Virus genome (UHGV): UHGV-0024713
Length of the DNA: 44,680 bases
Source of the DNA: a virus
Direction: 5' to 3' (one strand)
The position numbers were made by a program, and so were the translations under genes. The notes under the pieces are model-generated. The model was not told where the DNA came from. It searched no databases and saw only the letters and a program-made list of their open reading frames with translations. Shown piece after piece: positions 2,782-35,187 of this stretch (position 1 is the first letter of the stretch; each line of letters begins with the position of its first letter).

Positions 2782-2826
2782 ATTGGTTGCCATTTTGAGT
2801 GTTTTTATCTGGCCGTATTGGTTGCC
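2782..2826 (+). promoter_or_regulatory. Direct-repeat pair of ATTGGTTGCC motif (copies at 2782-2791 and 2817-2826)
   Basis: Two identical 10-mers 35 bp apart directly after the primase-helicase stop; same motif recurs at about 10 other intergenic loci. Confidence 0.4.
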
Positions 2827-3097: not shown

Positions 3098-3107
3098 GGC
3101 AACCAAT
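3098..3107 (-). promoter_or_regulatory. Single reverse-oriented copy of the recurring motif (GGCAACCAAT on + strand)
   Basis: Matches reverse complement of ATTGGTTGCC within the non-coding hub. Confidence 0.3.
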
Positions 3108-3188
3108 GCGAGTTGCAGAATGGTGGGTGAAAAATGCAGTTTGCAGTTACAGCAGATAGCGATCAACTTTTTCATACGCATGATTAAT

Positions 3189-3229
3189 ATTGGTTGCGTC
3201 CGCCCTGGCACCTTGCTATATTGGTTGCA
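3189..3229 (+). promoter_or_regulatory. sigma70-like promoter with embedded motif pair upstream of 3248..3556
   Basis: -35 TTGCGT (3194-3199) inside motif copy 1, 17-nt spacer, -10 TATATT (3217-3222) overlapping motif copy 2 ATTGGTTGCA (3220-3229). Confidence 0.5.
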
Positions 3230-6266: not shown

Positions 6267-6305
6267 TTGACATGCAACCAACTATCAGACCATACTGCGA
6301 CCAAT
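6267..6305 (+). promoter_or_regulatory. sigma70-like promoter (TTGACA-18-CATACT) overlapped by two reverse-oriented motif copies
   Basis: TTGACA 6267-6272; TGCAACCAAC 6273-6282; CATACT 6291-6296; TGCGACCAAT 6296-6305. Confidence 0.45.
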
Positions 6306-14160: not shown

Positions 14161-14184
14161 TGCGACCAATATATTGCAACCAAT
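14161..14184 (-). promoter_or_regulatory. Promoter candidate for the antisense cassette, with motif pair
   Basis: + strand TGCGACCAAT (14161-14170) and TGCAACCAAT (14175-14184); on minus strand TTGCAA-18-TATATT. Confidence 0.45.
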
Positions 14185-24958: not shown

Positions 24959-25566
24959 CCACCTTTAAACTATACGGCGTCTTAGGACGTCGTTTCGGTA
25001 AAGTGCATAAGCTGGACTGCTTCACACCGGGCGAGGGAATCACCGGCCTGTGTGTGAAGTTACCAGGCTTACAGGACTTTCTAATGTCGGCCCACCTGGA
25101 CAACATGATGTTCAAGGTGCGCAAGGGTAATCACACAATGACCGGTTACGACGAGTTGGGCGAGTTCCACGGCAACCGCGTCGTGACCATCGCACCGGTT
25201 ATGACCGGCGCAAAACGCGGACTAGGCCAATTACTGGCGGGCGTAGCCATCGTGGTGGCGTCGTTCTACACCGGCGGCCTTGCGACTGCCGCCTTTGGTG
25301 CTTCCGCCGCTACCGCTGCCGCTATTGGTACGGCGACGTTCTCGTTCGGGATGTCGATGGCGCTGGGCGGTGCTATGCAATTGCTGTCGCCACAGCCGAA
25401 AGGATTGCAGACACGGCAGGACGTGGATAACAAAGCGTCGTATGCGTTCGGCGGACCGGTAAACACGACCGCACAAGGTACGGCACTTGGTGTATTATGG
25501 GGCGAGCGTGAGATCGGCGGCGCTATTATTTCAGCCGGAATCGTAACCGAGGACTTGAACGAATGA
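24949..25566 (+). CDS. Tail assembly protein I-like
   Basis: 205-aa protein between K and J with Gly/Ala-rich hydrophobic C-terminal half. Confidence 0.7.
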   Translation: MAMTTFKLYGVLGRRFGKVHKLDCFTPGEGITGLCVKLPGLQDFLMSAHLDNMMFKVRKGNHTMTGYDELGEFHGNRVVTIAPVMTGAKRGLGQLLAGVAIVVASFYTGGLATAAFGASAATAAAIGTATFSFGMSMALGGAMQLLSPQPKGLQTRQDVDNKASYAFGGPVNTTAQGTALGVLWGEREIGGAIISAGIVTEDLNE

Positions 25567-28500
25567 CGATTGTATACGACGTCACAGGCCATAAAGGCGG
25601 CGGAGGCAAACAGCACACCCCACAAGAGACGCCAGATAGCCTGCATTCGCTGGCTAAAATCCGCATCTTGCTCGCACTGGGTGAAGGTGAGTTCGAAGGC
25701 ATTCCCGACCCCAACGAATTACGGCAGCGCGTTTATTTGGACGGCACACCGATCCAGAACGCCGACAGATCCGAAAACTTCCCCGGCGCGCGCGTGGAGT
25801 TCCGCCCCGGCACACAGCACCAGGACGTGATTCACGGATTTTCCGCGGTGGAAAGTGAGCAAACCGTAGGCGTAAAACTGGAATACGGCACGCCGTGGGT
25901 GCGCCAGATTAACGACATCAGTCTTGACGCCGTGCGCATTCGAATCGGCATTCCGGCCCTGTACACCAACGAAGACAACGGCGACCTGGTGGGCGGGCGC
26001 ATCGACTACAAAATAGTTGTGTATACGGACAACGCTGATCCGCGAGAGTTTACCTTCGCTGCCGTTGGTAAAACAATGTCGCTGTACGAGCGCGATCACC
26101 GCATCGAGTTACCGCCGAACGTGAACGCCGGCTGGCGCGTGGAAGTGCACCGCACAACGGCAGATTCCACATCGGCGAAAGTGGTCAATGATATCCGGGT
26201 GCAATCCATTACGGAGATTATCGACGCCCGCCTGCGATATCCGCTAACCGCGCTGTTGTTCGTGGAGTTCGACGCTAAGGCGTTCCAGAATATCCCGCGC
26301 GTATCCATTAAGTGTAAAGGCCGCAAAGTGCTGGTTCCGAACAACTACGACCCGATTAATCATACCTATTCGGGCGACTGGGATGGCACGTTCAAACGCG
26401 CATGGACGGATAACCCCGCGTGGCACTGGTACGATATTTGTATTACTGAGCGCTTCGGCCTCGGTCGGCGTATCAAACCGCAAATGTTAAACCGGTACGC
26501 GCTCTACCAGATTGCGCAGCGCTGCGATCAACTGGTCAGCGACGGCAACGGCGGGCAGGAAATCCGATTTAAGAATGATATGTACATCCAGTCGCAGACA
26601 GACGCCTGGACCGTGCTTAAGGATTTAGCTGCCATCTTCGCCGGGATGACCTGGTGGGGAAACCAAATGTTGAATATCGTCAGTGACCAACCGGTCGCAG
26701 CAGTGTCGCACACTATCACCAACGCCTCGGTGATTGATGGTCGATTCGACTACGCATCTGGCAGCCAGAAAACGCGGTACTCCACTTTCGCGGTAGCATA
26801 CGGCAACCCGAAAAACCACTATGATGACGCTATCGCAACGGGCCAGCGCGTCGAACTGGTACGCCGCCATAAGATTAACCGTCTGGATATCACGGCGATC
26901 GGCTGTACGCGTGAATCAGAAGCGCAACGCCGGGGGCACTGGGCGCTAATCTCCAACCAGCTTGACCAGCAAGTTAGCTTTAAGGTTGGCATGGAAGGAC
27001 TATTCTTTATTCCGGGTAGTGTAGTCGCGATCGCCGATACAAACATTTCTGGCGGCTTCGAGACACGCGGCGGTCGCCTGTTGCCAGATCCTGGCACGCG
27101 GACGGTGCTGAACACAGACAGCGAAATCACGTTCCGCCCTGGCGATAAATTCCTGGTACGCACCGATAGCGGTAATGTGGAGACTCGCGAGATCGCCAGC
27201 GTCAACGGCAACAAGGTTACGCTAAAAACCGCACTGGATGCCGACCCGATTCCGGACCAGCCGTTTTGCGTTGATGGCGACGATATCCAGTTGCAGAAGT
27301 TCCGCATCACCGACCTGGAATATGACGACTCTACCAGCACTTTTTCAGTGCGCGGGATCGAGTACAACGATAGCAAATATGATGCCGTTGATAATGGCGC
27401 TCGCCTTGACCCTGGCATCTTCACGCAAGTGCCTGACGGCGTAATGAAGGGGCCGGAATCCGTGACCATCACCCCGTCGCAGATTTCATCGCAAGGCCAG
27501 CTAATCACCAACGTGGATATTGTCTTCCCGCCGGTGAAGGATGCCGTTGTGTATGAAATCCAGTGGCGACGTACCAGCTTGCAGAATATGGCGATCCAAT
27601 GGGGTAACGACTGGGTGAACATCCCCCGCACGGCATCGAACGGTGCGCACATCCCGAACGTGTTTTCCGGCAACTATCAGGCACGCGTCCGCGCGATCGG
27701 TATGGGCGAGATTTCATCCCCGTGGGTGTCGTCTGCCATCACGCCGATCGAAGGTCGTCTCGGCGGGCTTAACGCGCCTATCATCACCAACGCGATTTCG
27801 GGCCTCCACCAAATTTTGTGGAAGTGGAACCACAACAACGCCGCGACGGATATCTCTTACACCGAGCTTGAAGTGCGCAAGACTGGTGAAACGGAATGGA
27901 AGTTCTTAACCAACGTCCCATATCCGGGGGCGGAGTACGCCCAAACGTCGCTGGAGTTCGGCATCTACCAGCAGTTGCGCGCCCGTGTAGCGGATAAAAT
28001 CGGAAACCTGTCGGACTGGTCAGATCCGTTTGAAGGCCAGGTGAGTGACAAAGTTGACGAATACATGAAGGGGCTTGATGACGAGTTCTTGACTTCCGAG
28101 GATGGTAAACACTTCCAGGAAGCAATAGACACCATGCCGCAGGGTATTTACGAGGCCATGCTCACCGACGCACAGCAAATGTTTAACGCCCGCGCCGAAT
28201 ATCAAGGGATCTACGCAGAAATCAAGGTGGCGTATAACGTGGCGGTGGATGCTAACGAGGCCGTGGCGCAACTGGAGACGTTGATCGGCACGCGCCTTGA
28301 CGATGCGGAAGCGTCAATCCACACGTTGCAGACCGCGCAAAGCACGCACGAACAAGCGTTCGCCCAGTACCAGCAGACTGTTGCCGCTAAATTCGGGGAA
28401 CAGGAAGCTGCCATCCAGCAGGTACAAACGGCAACGGCAGACGTAGCTGGCGCACTGGCTGAGTATAAGACCCATGTAGCGGCGCAGTTCGGTCAGCAGT

Positions 28501-29009
28501 CCGCAGCTATTGAGCAGAAGATGACGTCTTCGTTTAACCATGCTGGGGGTAGCGCTACGTATAGCCTTAAGGCTGGCGTGACGTATAACGGGACTTACTA
28601 TGACGCCGGTATGCAGCTTTCGGTTGTAGCGGAAGGGGGCGCGGTTAAATCGCGTATTGCGTTCAAGGCTGACCAGTTCTACATCATGCACCCGTCAAAT
28701 GGGTCGCTTTCGTCCGCGTTTATCGTTGACGGGGGTCAGGTGTACATCGACACGGCACGCATCAAGAACGCGTCAATCAACTTTGCGCAGATCACAGACA
28801 CGCTCCAATCCAACAACTGGATTCCGGGGGCCAGGGGCTGGCGTATTGCGAAAGATGGCGGTGCTGAATTTAACGAGGTAACCGTACGCGGCAACTTGTT
28901 CGCGACTACTGGTAACTTCGGATTCTCTGGCGGGTCTGTGCAGATCGACGCTACAGGCGTAAACGTCCCATTACCTGGAGGGGGTCGGGTTAAAGTCGGT
29001 ACGTGGTAA
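25563..29009 (+). CDS. Tail tip / host specificity protein J-like (central tail fibre)
   Basis: 1148-aa protein following M-L-K-I, same order and size class as lambda J. Confidence 0.9.
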   Translation: MTIVYDVTGHKGGGGKQHTPQETPDSLHSLAKIRILLALGEGEFEGIPDPNELRQRVYLDGTPIQNADRSENFPGARVEFRPGTQHQDVIHGFSAVESEQTVGVKLEYGTPWVRQINDISLDAVRIRIGIPALYTNEDNGDLVGGRIDYKIVVYTDNADPREFTFAAVGKTMSLYERDHRIELPPNVNAGWRVEVHRTTADSTSAKVVNDIRVQSITEIIDARLRYPLTALLFVEFDAKAFQNIPRVSIKCKGRKVLVPNNYDPINHTYSGDWDGTFKRAWTDNPAWHWYDICITERFGLGRRIKPQMLNRYALYQIAQRCDQLVSDGNGGQEIRFKNDMYIQSQTDAWTVLKDLAAIFAGMTWWGNQMLNIVSDQPVAAVSHTITNASVIDGRFDYASGSQKTRYSTFAVAYGNPKNHYDDAIATGQRVELVRRHKINRLDITAIGCTRESEAQRRGHWALISNQLDQQVSFKVGMEGLFFIPGSVVAIADTNISGGFETRGGRLLPDPGTRTVLNTDSEITFRPGDKFLVRTDSGNVETREIASVNGNKVTLKTALDADPIPDQPFCVDGDDIQLQKFRITDLEYDDSTSTFSVRGIEYNDSKYDAVDNGARLDPGIFTQVPDGVMKGPESVTITPSQISSQGQLITNVDIVFPPVKDAVVYEIQWRRTSLQNMAIQWGNDWVNIPRTASNGAHIPNVFSGNYQARVRAIGMGEISSPWVSSAITPIEGRLGGLNAPIITNAISGLHQILWKWNHNNAATDISYTELEVRKTGETEWKFLTNVPYPGAEYAQTSLEFGIYQQLRARVADKIGNLSDWSDPFEGQVSDKVDEYMKGLDDEFLTSEDGKHFQEAIDTMPQGIYEAMLTDAQQMFNARAEYQGIYAEIKVAYNVAVDANEAVAQLETLIGTRLDDAEASIHTLQTAQSTHEQAFAQYQQTVAAKFGEQEAAIQQVQTATADVAGALAEYKTHVAAQFGQQSAAIEQKMTSSFNHAGGSATYSLKAGVTYNGTYYDAGMQLSVVAEGGAVKSRIAFKADQFYIMHPSNGSLSSAFIVDGGQVYIDTARIKNASINFAQITDTLQSNNWIPGARGWRIAKDGGAEFNEVTVRGNLFATTGNFGFSGGSVQIDATGVNVPLPGGGRVKVGTW

Positions 29010-29015
29010 TGCTAA

Positions 29016-29039
29016 GGGGCCATCCGGCCCTTTTTTTTT
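29016..29039. terminator. Bidirectional intrinsic terminator between J (+) and the convergent minus-strand gene
   Basis: GGGGCC-atcc-GGCCC followed by T9; the T-run overlaps the minus-gene stop. Confidence 0.7.
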
Positions 29040-30003
29040 AATACATGTTAGGGATGACTAGTAGCGGGGTTGGTACGGCAATATTTTTACTTGGCATCTG
29101 GAATTGCTGCCGTGAGTAGTTGCCAATGACGCGGTTTTTTGCTATGCGCACATTATTGCCCGCCATTCGTATCCCGTTCATGCGAACGTGGTTATAGCCG
29201 CCGTTGTTCTCAATGAGCGCGCCGGTGTATGAGAGCTGGATCAGACTATTACCGATGTACTGGTCACCACCACCGATAGTAATCGTGCGGTCGTAGACAA
29301 ACGGCTTGTTTACCGTCGAGAACGTGACCTGACCCTGGTTGTTTGTCATGGTGATACCGGCCCCCGGTGAAGGCGGCGTATTGTTGAATATTACAAGGTC
29401 CATATCCACCGCAGCCGCCACATCGTCAATGCCACCATAGGACGCGTTGCGGACTATAATACTGCCGCCGTCGAAGCCGACGGATACGTTGCCGTCATCC
29501 CAGCGTGCAAACGGGACACCGCTAACAGGCAAGGGCATACTACCGTTGACGCGCACGCGCTGTGCGTATCGGCAGGTCATTAGCTTAGCTACGTTGGATA
29601 TTGCGGTGAAGTCCGTCGAGTTAGCCACCAGTAAGCCCGCGTTGCGTGAACCAACCGGCAGCACTTCCATTATGACGCCCGCCCATTGTGGTAAACCAGA
29701 GTACGCGCCATACGCATCCTCCCCGCGCAGGGTGATACCACTATTACCGTTGCGAGTAACCGACGTAATGTAAAACGGGTCGGGTATTACCAGGGTCTGG
29801 TCGAATACCTCAATCACGTCAACCGGATTAGTGAGGGCAACGACCAGTTCGGACCCAGGCGTTAGCTGGGTGTTAATGGTCAGCGTCTTGTCAGACTGAC
29901 AGCGCTGATTAAAGGTAGTGCAAAACGACGGCGCGCGTAGCCCGGCGGTTATCTCCATAACCGGACGCCCGTCGTTGTAGTCGATAAGTATTCCAGCACC
30001 CAT
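29038..30003 (-). CDS. Gly/Asn-rich beta-helix-like protein, candidate receptor-binding protein or tail spike
   Basis: Start at internal ATG with GGGAG RBS; repetitive VGFDGGS / IGGGDQY / NNGGYNH segments; co-oriented with the upstream lipoprotein. Confidence 0.4.
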   Translation of the reverse strand: MGAGILIDYNDGRPVMEITAGLRAPSFCTTFNQRCQSDKTLTINTQLTPGSELVVALTNPVDVIEVFDQTLVIPDPFYITSVTRNGNSGITLRGEDAYGAYSGLPQWAGVIMEVLPVGSRNAGLLVANSTDFTAISNVAKLMTCRYAQRVRVNGSMPLPVSGVPFARWDDGNVSVGFDGGSIIVRNASYGGIDDVAAAVDMDLVIFNNTPPSPGAGITMTNNQGQVTFSTVNKPFVYDRTITIGGGDQYIGNSLIQLSYTGALIENNGGYNHVRMNGIRMAGNNVRIAKNRVIGNYSRQQFQMPSKNIAVPTPLLVIPNMY

Positions 30004-30005
30004 TA

Positions 30006-30227
30006 TTACCACTCCCGTGATTTAACTGAAACAGTGCCGGAAAAATTGCCGTCACTATCGGCAGACAGACCAGTGAAACGCATGTCCACATTTCCGGAAG
30101 GGACTTTTTGCCCGTCAACGTAGCGCAACATGCAGCTACCGTAAGCCGTCGTAACGCAATCGCCGTTGTTGCGCTCCACAGCACAACCGGATAAAAGAAC
30201 CGCACAAATCATAATTAAAGTTTTCAT
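30006..30227 (-). CDS. Small outer-membrane lipoprotein (73 aa), candidate superinfection-exclusion protein
   Basis: Signal peptide MKTLIMICAVLLSGC with lipobox LSGC; two further Cys in the mature part; GGAGA RBS; motif-bearing promoter region upstream. Confidence 0.6.
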   Translation of the reverse strand: MKTLIMICAVLLSGCAVERNNGDCVTTAYGSCMLRYVDGQKVPSGNVDMRFTGLSADSDGNFSGTVSVKSREW

Positions 30228-30281
30228 GGTATCATCTCCTATATTTGGTTGAGTTTTAGTATTACACCGCTCGATCAAGAA

Positions 30282-30291
30282 TGCAACCAAT
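30282..30291 (-). promoter_or_regulatory. Motif copy in the divergent region between lipoprotein and tail-fibre genes
   Basis: + strand TGCAACCAAT, reading ATTGGTTGCA about 55 nt upstream of the lipoprotein start on the minus strand. Confidence 0.4.
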
Positions 30292-30307
30292 TTATGAGGA
30301 TTCAGCT

Positions 30308-31903
30308 ATGGCAGCGGGTACACTATCCGTAACGAATAACAGCAAGGCGGTTGTAGGGGTGGGCACAACGTTTACCTCGTTTAACGCCGGCGACTTCTTA
30401 ACGCTGGTGGTAGGACAAGTCCCCTACACCGTAGCAATCGCGTCCATTGAAAGCGACACCGCGCTTACGCTGGTGTTACCGTTCGACGGCCCATCGGCAA
30501 CCGGCCTTGCGTGGGATGGAGTTAAGCGCGATACCATGTCACTGGCAACGATGGGCGTTACCGTACAGGCGCAGAAAGCACTACGCTTTATGATCGCGGA
30601 CGAAAACAACTGGCGCGCAATCTTCGGCGATGCGGAAGAAATCACGGTGACGCTGCCAAACGGGCAAGTAATGCAAGGCATGTCATGGGGATATCTGTCC
30701 TCCTTGCTCAAGGAAGTAGACCCGATTGAGATGCGCGACCTCGCAGCGCAAGCCGAAGCCTCAAAATCGGCAGCGCAAGGATTTCGTAATGAGGCCGAAG
30801 GCTTCAAGACCGAGACGGCTGGCATTCGCGACGCCACCAATCAGATTAAGGCGGATACGCAGGCGATCCACGACGCCACTAATACCATCAAGACGCAGAC
30901 TGACCAGATTAAGACTGATACGCAGGTCATCAAAGACCAGACGAACCAGATCAAGACCGACACCGGCGTTATGAGGGACGAGGCCAACATCGCGAAGACG
31001 GACGCGCAAGCTGCCAGCGCTGCCGCGCGGGGATTCCGTGACCAGGCCGAGGAGTGGGCGCAAAGCGTTAACGCGGATAACCTGCTAACCAAATCAGGCA
31101 ACCTGGCAGGTCTTGCGGATAAAACTGCGTCGTGGGCAAACCTTATGCCTACCGGCCCGCTTCGCGTTGGGGCAGACCCTATTGCCGATCTTGACGCTAC
31201 GACAAAGCGCTGGGTTGCCCTTAACACCAGAATGGACGAGCACATTGCAGGCCTTAATGTTGACGTGACAAGTACAAATATAAAAGTGTATCCGGGGGAA
31301 TGCTATCTTCCATCTGAAGATAAAATATTGCGCCTGGAGGCGCCGAAGACTATCGCGCACAGTGGCTTAACAGCGGCAACGAAGTATTATATTTACGCAT
31401 ATAATGAAAGCGGATCGTTGGGGATTGAAGTCTCAACAACCGAAAATGTCAAATACGGATATAAAGCCAGCACTAAAAAAGACGACCCAAGTCGACGCTT
31501 CATTGGAATGTTTTACTTCACTGGAGGGTCCGAGGTTGCTATTTGCAAATTAATTGACGGTGAGTGTGTGCATTTATTTCCCTGGGGAAGTATTGGGCGA
31601 GTATTAAACAATGGAAAAGCCACTACTGATGCACCTGTAGATTATGAAAAATTTGTCCCTTCGGCATCCTTTACTAGTGTTAAAGTTGCAGTGACTAACA
31701 CCGCAACTACGATTGTTGCCGCTGATATAGGACCGATTGGGTTTGACTATGTAACTAACGTTCAACCGTATTACTGTAAGTTTTTAATAGACATACTTCC
31801 TAATATTGCTGGTGGCGGCTCTCTTAAGTACAAGTATACTTCCGCCCCACAAGACGCAGGAGGTTTTTTCATAGATGTTGCGGGGTATAAATATGACCGG
31901 TGA
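30308..31903 (+). CDS. Tail fibre protein with repeat-rich shaft and AT-richer C-terminal domain
   Basis: Internal ATG with GAGGA RBS; IKxDTQ-type periodic repeats; 3' third visibly lower GC by eye. Confidence 0.7.
   Translation: MAAGTLSVTNNSKAVVGVGTTFTSFNAGDFLTLVVGQVPYTVAIASIESDTALTLVLPFDGPSATGLAWDGVKRDTMSLATMGVTVQAQKALRFMIADENNWRAIFGDAEEITVTLPNGQVMQGMSWGYLSSLLKEVDPIEMRDLAAQAEASKSAAQGFRNEAEGFKTETAGIRDATNQIKADTQAIHDATNTIKTQTDQIKTDTQVIKDQTNQIKTDTGVMRDEANIAKTDAQAASAAARGFRDQAEEWAQSVNADNLLTKSGNLAGLADKTASWANLMPTGPLRVGADPIADLDATTKRWVALNTRMDEHIAGLNVDVTSTNIKVYPGECYLPSEDKILRLEAPKTIAHSGLTAATKYYIYAYNESGSLGIEVSTTENVKYGYKASTKKDDPSRRFIGMFYFTGGSEVAICKLIDGECVHLFPWGSIGRVLNNGKATTDAPVDYEKFVPSASFTSVKVAVTNTATTIVAADIGPIGFDYVTNVQPYYCKFLIDILPNIAGGGSLKYKYTSAPQDAGGFFIDVAGYKYDR
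30760..31060 (+). repeat. Periodic in-frame repeats in the fibre shaft (ATNQIKADTQAI / TNTIKTQTDQIKTDTQVIKDQTNQIKTDT)
   Basis: Recurring cagattaag / cagatcaag / accgacacc units. Confidence 0.6.
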
Positions 31904-33245: not shown

Positions 33246-33267
33246 TGCAACCAACCTATTGGTTGCA
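33246..33267. promoter_or_regulatory. Inverted pair of the motif (TGCAACCAA-cct-ATTGGTTGCA) with adjacent TATAAT
   Basis: Palindromic arrangement between two minus-strand genes; minus strand reads TTGCAA-18-TATAGT. Confidence 0.45.
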
Positions 33268-35155: not shown

Positions 35156-35187
35156 TATAATGCAACCAATATGATTAAGCAACCAAT
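35156..35187 (-). promoter_or_regulatory. Promoter candidate with motif pair upstream of 34856..35107
   Basis: + strand TATAAT-TGCAACCAAT...AGCAACCAAT; minus strand TTGCTT-17-TATATT. Confidence 0.45.

What the first reader, a model, noticed from the sequence alone, without database searches (positions are those of the whole stretch)
29038..30227. Antisense lipoprotein plus beta-helix cassette between J and the tail fibre: candidate exclusion lipoprotein with receptor-binding protein
A 73-aa lipoprotein (lipobox LSGC, two extra Cys) and a 321-aa Gly/Asn-rich repetitive protein are transcribed together against the late operon, flanked by bidirectional terminators and a motif-bearing promoter. 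In several siphovirus groups the terminal receptor-binding protein is encoded next to a small outer-membrane lipoprotein that blocks the same receptor (T5 Llp and Cor-type proteins). This pair could be an uncharacterised receptor-binding and exclusion module.
Basis: partly seen in the sequence, partly recalled or inferred. Interest (0 to 1): 0.7.

Follow-up and report, generated by a model that had tools for sequence, protein, structure and literature searches.

The report
Known LptD receptor-binding and exclusion cassette

Summary
The window is a complete Dhillonvirus-type siphophage genome. Both genes exist as described. The 73-aa lipoprotein lies at 30227..30006 and the 321-aa protein at 30003..29038, both on the minus strand and 2 nt apart.

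- **Lipoprotein.** It is 93% identical to Oekolampad's partner lipoprotein. It belongs to the family of Rtp45, whose structure on LptDE explains superinfection exclusion.
- **Module exchange.** Comparison with other Dhillonviruses shows the cassette is a swappable module. FhuA/Cor-type alleles replace it between about 28819 and 30180.

The functional reading is supported. Three details are not:
- The protein is not a beta-helix, and I found no internal repeats.
- Only one terminator flanks the cassette.
- The module is not uncharacterised.

Both exact protein sequences are already in public collections. Novelty: already known. Interest: low.

The parts
28819..29009 (+). 3' end of the J-like tail-tip gene (full gene 25563..29009). 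It encodes the last ~63 residues of J, and this stretch changes together with the downstream cassette. It is the likely docking region for the separate RBP.
   Evidence: Nucleotide homology to the FhuA/Cor-type Dhillonviruses bob and SSL-2009a stops at 28818. Homology to TheodorHerzl stops at 28920. The protein alignment of J C-termini groups by cassette type. J domains: PF24801, PF13550 and PF09327.
29014..29033 (+). GC-rich hairpin between the converging J and RBP genes. It is a strong intrinsic terminator for the + strand (10-T tail). On the minus strand it is followed only by TTAGCATTA.
   Evidence: Terminator scan; sequence read on both strands.
29038..30003 (-). Receptor-binding protein of the central tail fibre (321 aa, DUF6453). 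It is the orthologue of Oekolampad RBP (bas18_0025), which binds the LptDE translocon.
30006..30227 (-). Superinfection-exclusion lipoprotein (73 aa) of the Rtp45/SEOeko family. It has the signal peptide MKTLIMICAVLLSG, lipid-anchor Cys15, Ala at +2, and a Cys24/Cys32 pair.
   Evidence: Pfam PF24052 at 77 bits. 68/73 identical to bas18_0026. Match to Rtp45 chain 9rps_D at E=6e-8, with the two Cys aligned to the two Cys of the Rtp45 chain; the paper reports a Cys30-Cys38 disulfide in Rtp45.
30228..30307 (.). 80-nt divergent intergenic region. It holds the presumed promoter of the cassette (minus strand: TTGCAT-N17-AATACT with TGn) and possibly the tail-fibre promoter. It is 97% conserved in Oekolampad.
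   Evidence: Sequence; alignment with Oekolampad. Promoter function is inferred: the generic scan did not call it.
30282..30291 (-). Copy of the window-wide motif ATTGGTTGCA, overlapping the candidate -35 element.
   Evidence: 17 sites against 3.4 expected; none of 100 shuffles reached 17.
30308..31903 (+). Lateral tail-fibre gene (context). The probable true start is ATG 30308, which has a GAGG ribosome-binding site and matches the Oekolampad annotation, rather than ATG 30281.
   Evidence: ORF list; sequence. Oekolampad's lateral tail fibre starts 80 nt after the lipoprotein gene. PHROG 1980 tail fibre.

Best explanation
This is the LptD-type host-recognition cassette of a Dhillonvirus.

[quoted passage not shown] It recognises the essential outer-membrane LPS translocon LptDE from outside the cell. 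It inserts its loop-bearing tip into an opened LptD barrel and contacts extracellular loops 3-5 and 11.

**The 73-aa lipoprotein.** It is made in the infected cell, lipidated at Cys15 and sent to the inner face of the outer membrane. There it binds LptDE from the periplasmic side and pushes a hairpin up the barrel lumen. This displaces loop EL4, so the RBP of incoming or released sister phages can no longer bind (superinfection exclusion, and protection of progeny from cell debris).

**Expression and exchange.** The two genes form one small operon read against the tail operon, from a promoter in the 80-nt gap before the lateral tail-fibre gene. The whole unit, including the last ~30-60 codons of J, is exchanged horizontally among small siphophages as a receptor-specificity module.

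**Shown versus inferred.** The binding modes were shown experimentally for Oekolampad RBP and for Rtp45. For this window they are inferred from 92-93% identity and synteny.
For: - **Sequence:** 295/321 identity to Oekolampad RBP and 68/73 to its lipoprotein. Full-length match to PDB 9RPT/9RPW/9RQI chain 'Tail fiber protein' at E=1e-196. Lipoprotein match to 9RPS chain D (Rtp45) at E=6e-8, with both Cys aligned to Cys in that chain.
- **Literature on the RBP:** Oekolampad's receptor is LptD, found through resistant lptD mutants (Maffei 2021). Cryo-EM shows RBPOeko on open LptDE. LptD D352Y and Y671N abolish binding and infection (Dunbar 2025).
- **Literature on exclusion:** Rtp45 bound to LptDE displaces EL4 by up to 20 Å.
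- **Synteny:** the order J, RBP, lipoprotein, lateral fibre is the same as in Oekolampad.
- **Modularity:** 60 of 157 related phage records carry the whole cassette. The others match only the flanks and carry Cor-type cassettes.
- **Substitutions:** the 26 differences from RBPOeko fall at positions that vary across the family (mean entropy 2.2 against 1.5 overall). The N-terminal ~25 residues are nearly invariant across the family.
Against: - Nothing was measured for this phage. LptD dependence is inferred.
- The Oekolampad lipoprotein itself could not be expressed by Dunbar et al. Its exclusion role rests on 35% identity to Rtp45 plus synteny.
- I could not read the original Rtp paper. The authors cite it when naming Rtp45 the exclusion lipoprotein of Rtp.
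- 26 substitutions in the RBP could in principle shift fine specificity.
- The promoter is hand-read and was not called by the consensus scan.
- The minus-strand terminator has a poor U-tract.
- Virion incorporation of the RBP has not been shown by proteomics in anything I read.
Confidence: 0.9

Rival explanations
1. The architecture is the same, but the 26 substitutions have retuned the RBP to a different receptor or to a markedly different LptD allele. The phage would then not be LptD(K-12)-dependent like Oekolampad.
For: The substitutions concentrate at positions that vary across the family. Black et al. place the conserved residues at the base rather than at the predicted LptD-binding end. 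More distant DUF6453 proteins occur in Klebsiella, Salmonella and Citrobacter phages and prophages, whose receptors I do not know.
Against: 92% identity and 96% similarity with no indels. Much more divergent family members share LptD: Rtp44 is 33% identical to RBPOeko, and RBPs of other LptD-dependent phages keep the same predicted fold at low sequence identity. Cassette alleles match known receptors 'without exception' in Maffei et al.. The partner lipoprotein is equally conserved.
Confidence: 0.05
2. The 321-aa protein is a host-directed 'membrane protein' or moron, as PHROG 1265 and several GenBank records label it, and not a virion receptor-binding protein.
For: PHROG 1265 is labelled 'membrane protein, moron'. 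Several records annotate it 'membrane protein'. The gene is transcribed against the structural operon.
Against: There is no hydrophobic segment (maximum 19-residue Kyte-Doolittle mean 1.2) and no signal peptide. The orthologue binds the extracellular face of LptDE as a soluble protein, and LptD mutations that block binding also block infection. In Citrobacter prophages the homologue sits directly after J on the same strand, among tail genes.
Confidence: 0.01
3. The lipoprotein is a Cor-type FhuA blocker, or another kind of small outer-membrane lipoprotein such as an o-spanin, and not an LptD-directed exclusion factor.
For: There is a weak PHROG 1119 (Cor) hit at E=2e-4. The signal peptide is identical to that of Cor in phages bob and SSL-2009a.
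Against: The Cor hit covers residues 1-31 only, and the mature parts do not align convincingly. The strong matches are PF24052, PHROG 4281 and Rtp45. The gene always travels with the LptD-type RBP, while Cor travels with a different gene pair. It is not in a lysis cassette and has no i-spanin partner beside it.
Confidence: 0.02

Closest known systems
Phage Oekolampad (Bas18, Dhillonvirus) RBP bas18_0025 plus lipoprotein bas18_0026; PDB 9RPT/9RPW/9RQI (Dunbar et al., PNAS 2025; Maffei et al., PLoS Biol 2021)
   Same: Same gene order, strands and spacing downstream of J. The proteins are 92% and 93% identical with no gaps. The fold is the same. The intergenic promoter region is 97% identical.
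   Different: 26 RBP and 5 lipoprotein substitutions, mostly at family-variable positions. Nucleotide identity over the cassette is only ~87-88%. The rest of the genome is closer to phages that carry a different cassette, for example phage bob.
Phage Rtp Rtp44 (RBP) and Rtp45 (exclusion lipoprotein, PDB 9RPS chain D), Drexlerviridae
   Same: Same two-gene module after the gpJ homologue. The lipoprotein shares the lipobox, the two-Cys pair and the central conserved stretch. The paper reports RBPOeko and Rtp44 at 33% identity with rmsd 1.1 Å between models.
   Different: Only about one-third sequence identity, in a different phage family. TheodorHerzl carries a second, more divergent allele of the same two-gene module in Dhillonvirus (RBP 34% and lipoprotein 43% identical to the window's).
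Phage T5 pb5 (RBP) and Llp (exclusion lipoprotein) acting on FhuA
   Same: Same logic: a separate tip RBP binds an outer-membrane protein, and a small lipoprotein binds the periplasmic side of the same receptor to prevent RBP binding.
   Different: No sequence or structure match in my searches. The receptor is different. Llp acts by long-range allostery, whereas Rtp45 physically displaces loops.
Cor lipoprotein with the FhuA-type cassette of other Dhillonviruses (bob, SSL-2009a; N15/HK022-like)
   Same: It occupies the same locus between J and the lateral tail fibre. The Cor gene is on the minus strand and has the identical signal peptide MKTLIMICAVLLSGCA.
   Different: The mature lipoprotein is unrelated. 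The accompanying genes are two plus-strand ORFs (100 and 223 aa) instead of one minus-strand DUF6453 gene.

Membership tests
LptD-binding RBPs of small siphophages (DUF6453 / PF20051; RBPOeko, Rtp44) | Full-length sequence membership in DUF6453 and homology to RBPOeko | tested here: met
   PF20051 at 407 bits against a cut-off of 25, covering 4-297 of 321. 295/321 identical to bas18_0025. 9rpt_C at E=1e-196.
LptD-binding RBPs of small siphophages (DUF6453 / PF20051; RBPOeko, Rtp44) | Fold of the solved RBP (all-beta, lectin-like sandwiches) | tested here: met
LptD-binding RBPs of small siphophages (DUF6453 / PF20051; RBPOeko, Rtp44) | Encoded immediately downstream of the gpJ homologue, paired with a small lipoprotein gene | tested here: met
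   J ends at 29009, the RBP is 29038..30003 (-) and the lipoprotein is 30006..30227 (-). The layout is identical in Oekolampad.
LptD-binding RBPs of small siphophages (DUF6453 / PF20051; RBPOeko, Rtp44) | Physical binding to LptDE and LptD-dependent infection | not testable with these tools
   Shown for Oekolampad only. Needs plating on lptD mutants and pull-downs.
Rtp45-type exclusion lipoproteins (PF24052 Phage_lipoprotein) | Family HMM above threshold and homology to Rtp45/SEOeko | tested here: met
   PF24052 at 77.3 bits against a cut-off of 27. 93% identical to SEOeko. 9rps_D at E=6e-8.
Rtp45-type exclusion lipoproteins (PF24052 Phage_lipoprotein) | Lipoprotein signal peptide with lipobox, and no inner-membrane retention signal | tested here: met
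   MKTLIMICAVLL-SGC with Cys15 and Ala16 at +2. Outer-membrane sorting follows from the established Lol +2 rule (an inference).
Rtp45-type exclusion lipoproteins (PF24052 Phage_lipoprotein) | Cys pair corresponding to the Rtp45 Cys30-Cys38 disulfide | tested here: met
   C24 and C32 align with the two Cys of 9rps_D. The disulfide is described in the paper.
Rtp45-type exclusion lipoproteins (PF24052 Phage_lipoprotein) | Confers exclusion of LptD-dependent phages when expressed | not testable with these tools
   Not demonstrated even for SEOeko, whose expression failed.
Cor superinfection-exclusion lipoproteins (FhuA) | Homology of the mature protein to Cor | tested here: not met
   PHROG 1119 hit at E=2e-4 covers residues 1-31 only. 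In the alignment with Cor of bob and SSL-2009a, identity is confined to the signal peptide.
T5 pb5 / Llp | Sequence or fold similarity to pb5 or Llp | tested here: not met
Right-handed beta-helix tailspikes/fibres | Parallel beta-helix fold with short repeated coils | tested here: not met

The most novel reading that the evidence does not exclude
The cassette may be bounded by built-in recombination linkers. On one side this is J around codon 1086-1120. On the other it is the signal-peptide coding sequence of the lipoprotein, which is identical between LptD-type and Cor/FhuA-type alleles. Specificity and matching immunity would then always be swapped as one unit. The last ~30-60 residues of J would act as an allele-specific docking adaptor for the RBP, whose N-terminus is nearly invariant. 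In addition, the 26 substitutions at variable positions could represent natural variation that escapes LptD resistance alleles such as D352Y or Y671N.
Probability: 0.3. Interest if true: 0.3.

Novelty: already known. Interest (0 to 1): 0.1.

Why it matters
It matters little as a discovery. The module, its receptor (LptD), the RBP-receptor structure and the exclusion mechanism were published between 2021 and 2025, and both exact protein sequences are already in public collections.

Its practical value is annotation. The genes that records label 'hypothetical protein' or 'membrane protein' can be renamed LptD-binding RBP and LptD-directed exclusion lipoprotein, and the phage's terminal receptor can be predicted as LptD. 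The mapped module boundaries may help anyone engineering receptor swaps in small siphophages.

Tried and rejected
- **Single-sequence AlphaFold** of the 321-aa protein gave an unusable model (pLDDT 32). I repeated it with a 63-sequence alignment.
- **Beta-helix hypothesis:** rejected by the fold searches and the repeat test.
- **Cor membership of the lipoprotein:** rejected, because only the signal peptide is shared.
- **T5 pb5/Llp homology:** no match.
- **NCBIfam:** it has no model for either protein. The only hit is a sub-threshold TraV signal-peptide match.
- **Terminator-like hairpin inside the lipoprotein gene** (30063-30047, minus strand): considered as an attenuator and rejected. The stem is broken in Oekolampad, and the number of terminator-like sites in the region is at chance level (6 against 4.8).
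- **Generic sigma-70 scan:** it found no promoter in the 80-nt gap. The candidate promoter is hand-read only.
- **Original Rtp paper** (PMC1367250): not held, so I could not verify the Rtp45 exclusion phenotype at source.
- **RNA genes:** tRNA and Rfam scans of the window were empty.

Full report
**What the window is.** The 44,680-base window is a whole small-siphophage genome of the Dhillonvirus type. Its first 25 kb match Shigella phage 1b, Escherichia phages bob, SECphi18 and YD-2008.s and others at about 91-92% nucleotide identity over 96-98% of the query. The finding region matches about 150 phage records, almost all of them Escherichia Dhillonviruses.

**Checking the observation.**
- The ORF list and the sequence show J (25563..29009, +, 1148 aa). 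Its Pfam domains are FNIII-A_GpJ, Phage-tail_3 and Phage_Tail_Tip.
- A GC-rich hairpin with a 10-T tail lies at 29014-29033.
- A 321-aa ORF runs 30003..29038 on the minus strand. A 73-aa ORF runs 30227..30006 on the minus strand. The two are separated by TAA-TA-ATG, with GGGAG upstream of the second start.
- An 80-nt gap follows, and then the lateral tail-fibre gene.
- The lipoprotein reads MKTLIMICAVLLSG-C15-A..., with C24 and C32 in the mature part.
- The 321-aa protein has 10.6% Gly and 8.7% Asn, against 7.9% and 4.1% in the window's long ORFs. It has no significant internal repeat (z<=1.3) and no hydrophobic segment.
- Both ORFs are unquestionably genes: PF20051 DUF6453 at E=5.5e-122 and PF24052 Phage_lipoprotein at E=8.9e-22; PHROG 1265 and PHROG 4281.
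- The 'motif-bearing promoter' is real as a motif. ATTGGTTGCA with up to 1 mismatch occurs 17 times against 3.4±1.6 expected. One copy lies 55 nt upstream of the lipoprotein ATG.
- Promoter activity itself is only inferred. The generic scan called nothing in the gap.
- Only one terminator touches the cassette, and it is strong in the + direction only.

**What it is.**
- A sequence search of all PDB chains gave one hit for the 321-aa protein: 9rpt_C (also 9rpw and 9rqi), 'Tail fiber protein', E=1e-196 over residues 1-321.
- These entries belong to Dunbar et al., PNAS 2025 (PMC12685063). That paper reports the cryo-EM structure of Shigella flexneri LptDE bound by the receptor-binding protein of BASEL phage Oekolampad (Bas18, Dhillonvirus).
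- Direct comparison with the Oekolampad genome (locus L001) gives 295/321 identities with no gaps for bas18_0025. It gives 68/73 for the adjacent lipoprotein bas18_0026. Gene order and strands are identical.
- The lipoprotein also matches 9rps_D, 'Phage lipoprotein' (Rtp45), at E=6e-8. Its two mature Cys align with the two Cys of that chain. The paper describes Rtp45 Cys30-Cys38 as a disulfide.
- To test the fold claim I collected homologues, aligned 63 of them and predicted the structure. The result was pLDDT 85.7, pTM 0.86, and all-beta with long antiparallel strands.
- Foldseek gave 9rpt_C as the single significant hit.
- Black et al. 2025 (PMC13035648) describe AlphaFold models of this RBP family, including Oekolampad's. 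[quoted passage not shown] The protein is therefore not a beta-helix.

**How it works (published for the orthologues, inferred here).**
- Maffei et al. 2021 identified LptD as the terminal receptor of Oekolampad and six other small siphophages through spontaneous lptD deletion mutants. [quoted passage not shown]
- Dunbar et al. showed that RBPOeko inserts deeply into an opened LptD barrel. The interface is about 1,700 Å² with 20 hydrogen bonds, and the contacts are mostly with EL3-5 and EL11.
- LptD D352Y, Y671N, EL5/EL11 duplications and the imp4213 EL4 deletion block infection. The two point mutants abolish binding in vitro.
- For exclusion, Rtp45 binds the periplasmic side of LptDE near strands 5-8, sandwiched between LptE and LptM. 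It sends a hairpin up the lumen and displaces EL4 by up to 20 Å, which is incompatible with RBP binding.
- The Oekolampad lipoprotein could not be expressed. Its role, and that of the window's 93%-identical protein, is inferred from 35% identity to Rtp45 plus synteny.
- Ala at +2 after the lipid-anchor Cys predicts outer-membrane sorting. This follows from the established Lol rule and fits the Rtp45 binding site.

**Comparative genomics of the locus.**
- With a 4-kb query, 60 of 157 records carry the whole cassette. The others match in two pieces, flanks only, and are annotated with Cor or 'super-infection exclusion protein'.
- Phages bob and SSL-2009a carry two plus-strand genes (100 and 223 aa) and a minus-strand Cor gene at this site.
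- TheodorHerzl carries a second, divergent allele of the same two-gene layout. Its RBP is 34% identical and its lipoprotein 43% identical.
- BLASTN breakpoints: homology to bob and SSL-2009a is lost from 28819 to 30180. Homology to TheodorHerzl is lost from 28921 to 30213.
- The swapped unit therefore includes the last ~30-63 codons of J, whose protein sequence groups by cassette type. It ends inside the lipoprotein signal peptide, which is identical (MKTLIMICAVLLSGCA) between this protein and Cor. This explains the weak Cor PHROG hit limited to residues 1-31.
- The genome backbone is closest to phages such as bob, which carry the other cassette. The cassette itself is closest to SP1, PC2 and Oekolampad. 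This is consistent with the horizontal exchange noted by Maffei et al..
- Across 63 family members the N-terminal ~25 residues are nearly invariant. Residues 31-45, 61-80, 91-110, 241-270 and 295-310 are variable.
- The 26 differences from RBPOeko fall preferentially at variable positions (mean entropy 2.2 against 1.5).
- In Citrobacter prophages the DUF6453 gene follows J directly on the same strand, with no lipoprotein gene called.

**Comparison with known systems and novelty.**
- The pair is a member of the LptD-type RBP / Rtp45-type lipoprotein module by every sequence, fold and synteny criterion I could test. Binding and exclusion phenotypes cannot be tested here.
- It works like T5 pb5/Llp, but it is not homologous to them. 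Its exclusion mechanism also differs: steric loop displacement rather than allostery.
- It is not a Cor homologue beyond the signal peptide.
- Both exact protein sequences are already in public collections, on a contig of 44,821 nt.

**Verdict.** Already known. Interest is low (0.1).

**Residual, mildly interesting points:**
- The precise module boundaries.
- The J C-terminus that changes together with the cassette.
- The unexplained ATTGGTTGCA motif.

Noticed in passing
window 2782-2826, 3098-3229, 3753, 6273-6305, 14161-14184, 30282, 33246-33267, 35161-35187, 38129, 44647: The 10-mer ATTGGTTGCA (up to 1 mismatch) occurs 17 times against 3.4±1.6 expected by chance. Sites are often in close pairs, or an inverted pair at 33246/33258, and several lie just ahead of start codons. 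It may be a phage-specific promoter (-35/UP) element or a regulator binding site. The copy upstream of the cassette is conserved in Oekolampad.
   Followed up: partly
window 30181-30227 (-): The signal-peptide coding part of the LptD-type exclusion lipoprotein is shared with the Cor gene of FhuA-type Dhillonviruses (bob, SSL-2009a). The peptide MKTLIMICAVLLSGCA is identical and the mature parts are unrelated. The right-hand recombination boundary of the module therefore lies inside the gene.
   Followed up: yes
window 28819-29009 (+): The last ~30-63 residues of the J-like protein differ according to which RBP cassette follows, while the preceding J sequence is conserved. This suggests the stretch is the RBP docking adaptor.
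   Followed up: partly
window 30281-30310: The mechanical ORF for the lateral tail fibre starts at ATG 30281. ATG 30308 has a GAGG ribosome-binding site 8 nt upstream and corresponds to the annotated Oekolampad start, 80 nt from the lipoprotein gene. The protein is probably 531 aa rather than 540 aa.
   Followed up: partly
window ~31090-31903: Nucleotide homology of the lateral tail-fibre gene to relatives stops around 30800-31200. This fits the variable distal receptor-binding part of lateral fibres reported for Dhillonviruses.
   Followed up: no
L005 6001-6945 (Citrobacter metagenome scaffold), and phage records: DUF6453 proteins 50-55% identical occur in Citrobacter and Salmonella prophages directly after J on the same strand, with no adjacent lipoprotein gene called. 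Weaker homologues occur in Klebsiella phages (~31%), Yersinia phage PY54 (25%) and, for the C-terminal two-thirds only, Gordonclarkvirinae podoviruses. I do not know the receptors of these. The first 34 residues are 76% identical to a protein of Citrobacter phage HCF1, the only stretch of the query that record matched.
   Followed up: partly
window 30047-30063 (-): A terminator-like hairpin with a T-run lies inside the lipoprotein coding sequence. The stem is not conserved in Oekolampad, so it is probably chance.
   Followed up: yes
whole window: No tRNA genes and no Rfam family reached threshold anywhere in the genome.
   Followed up: yes
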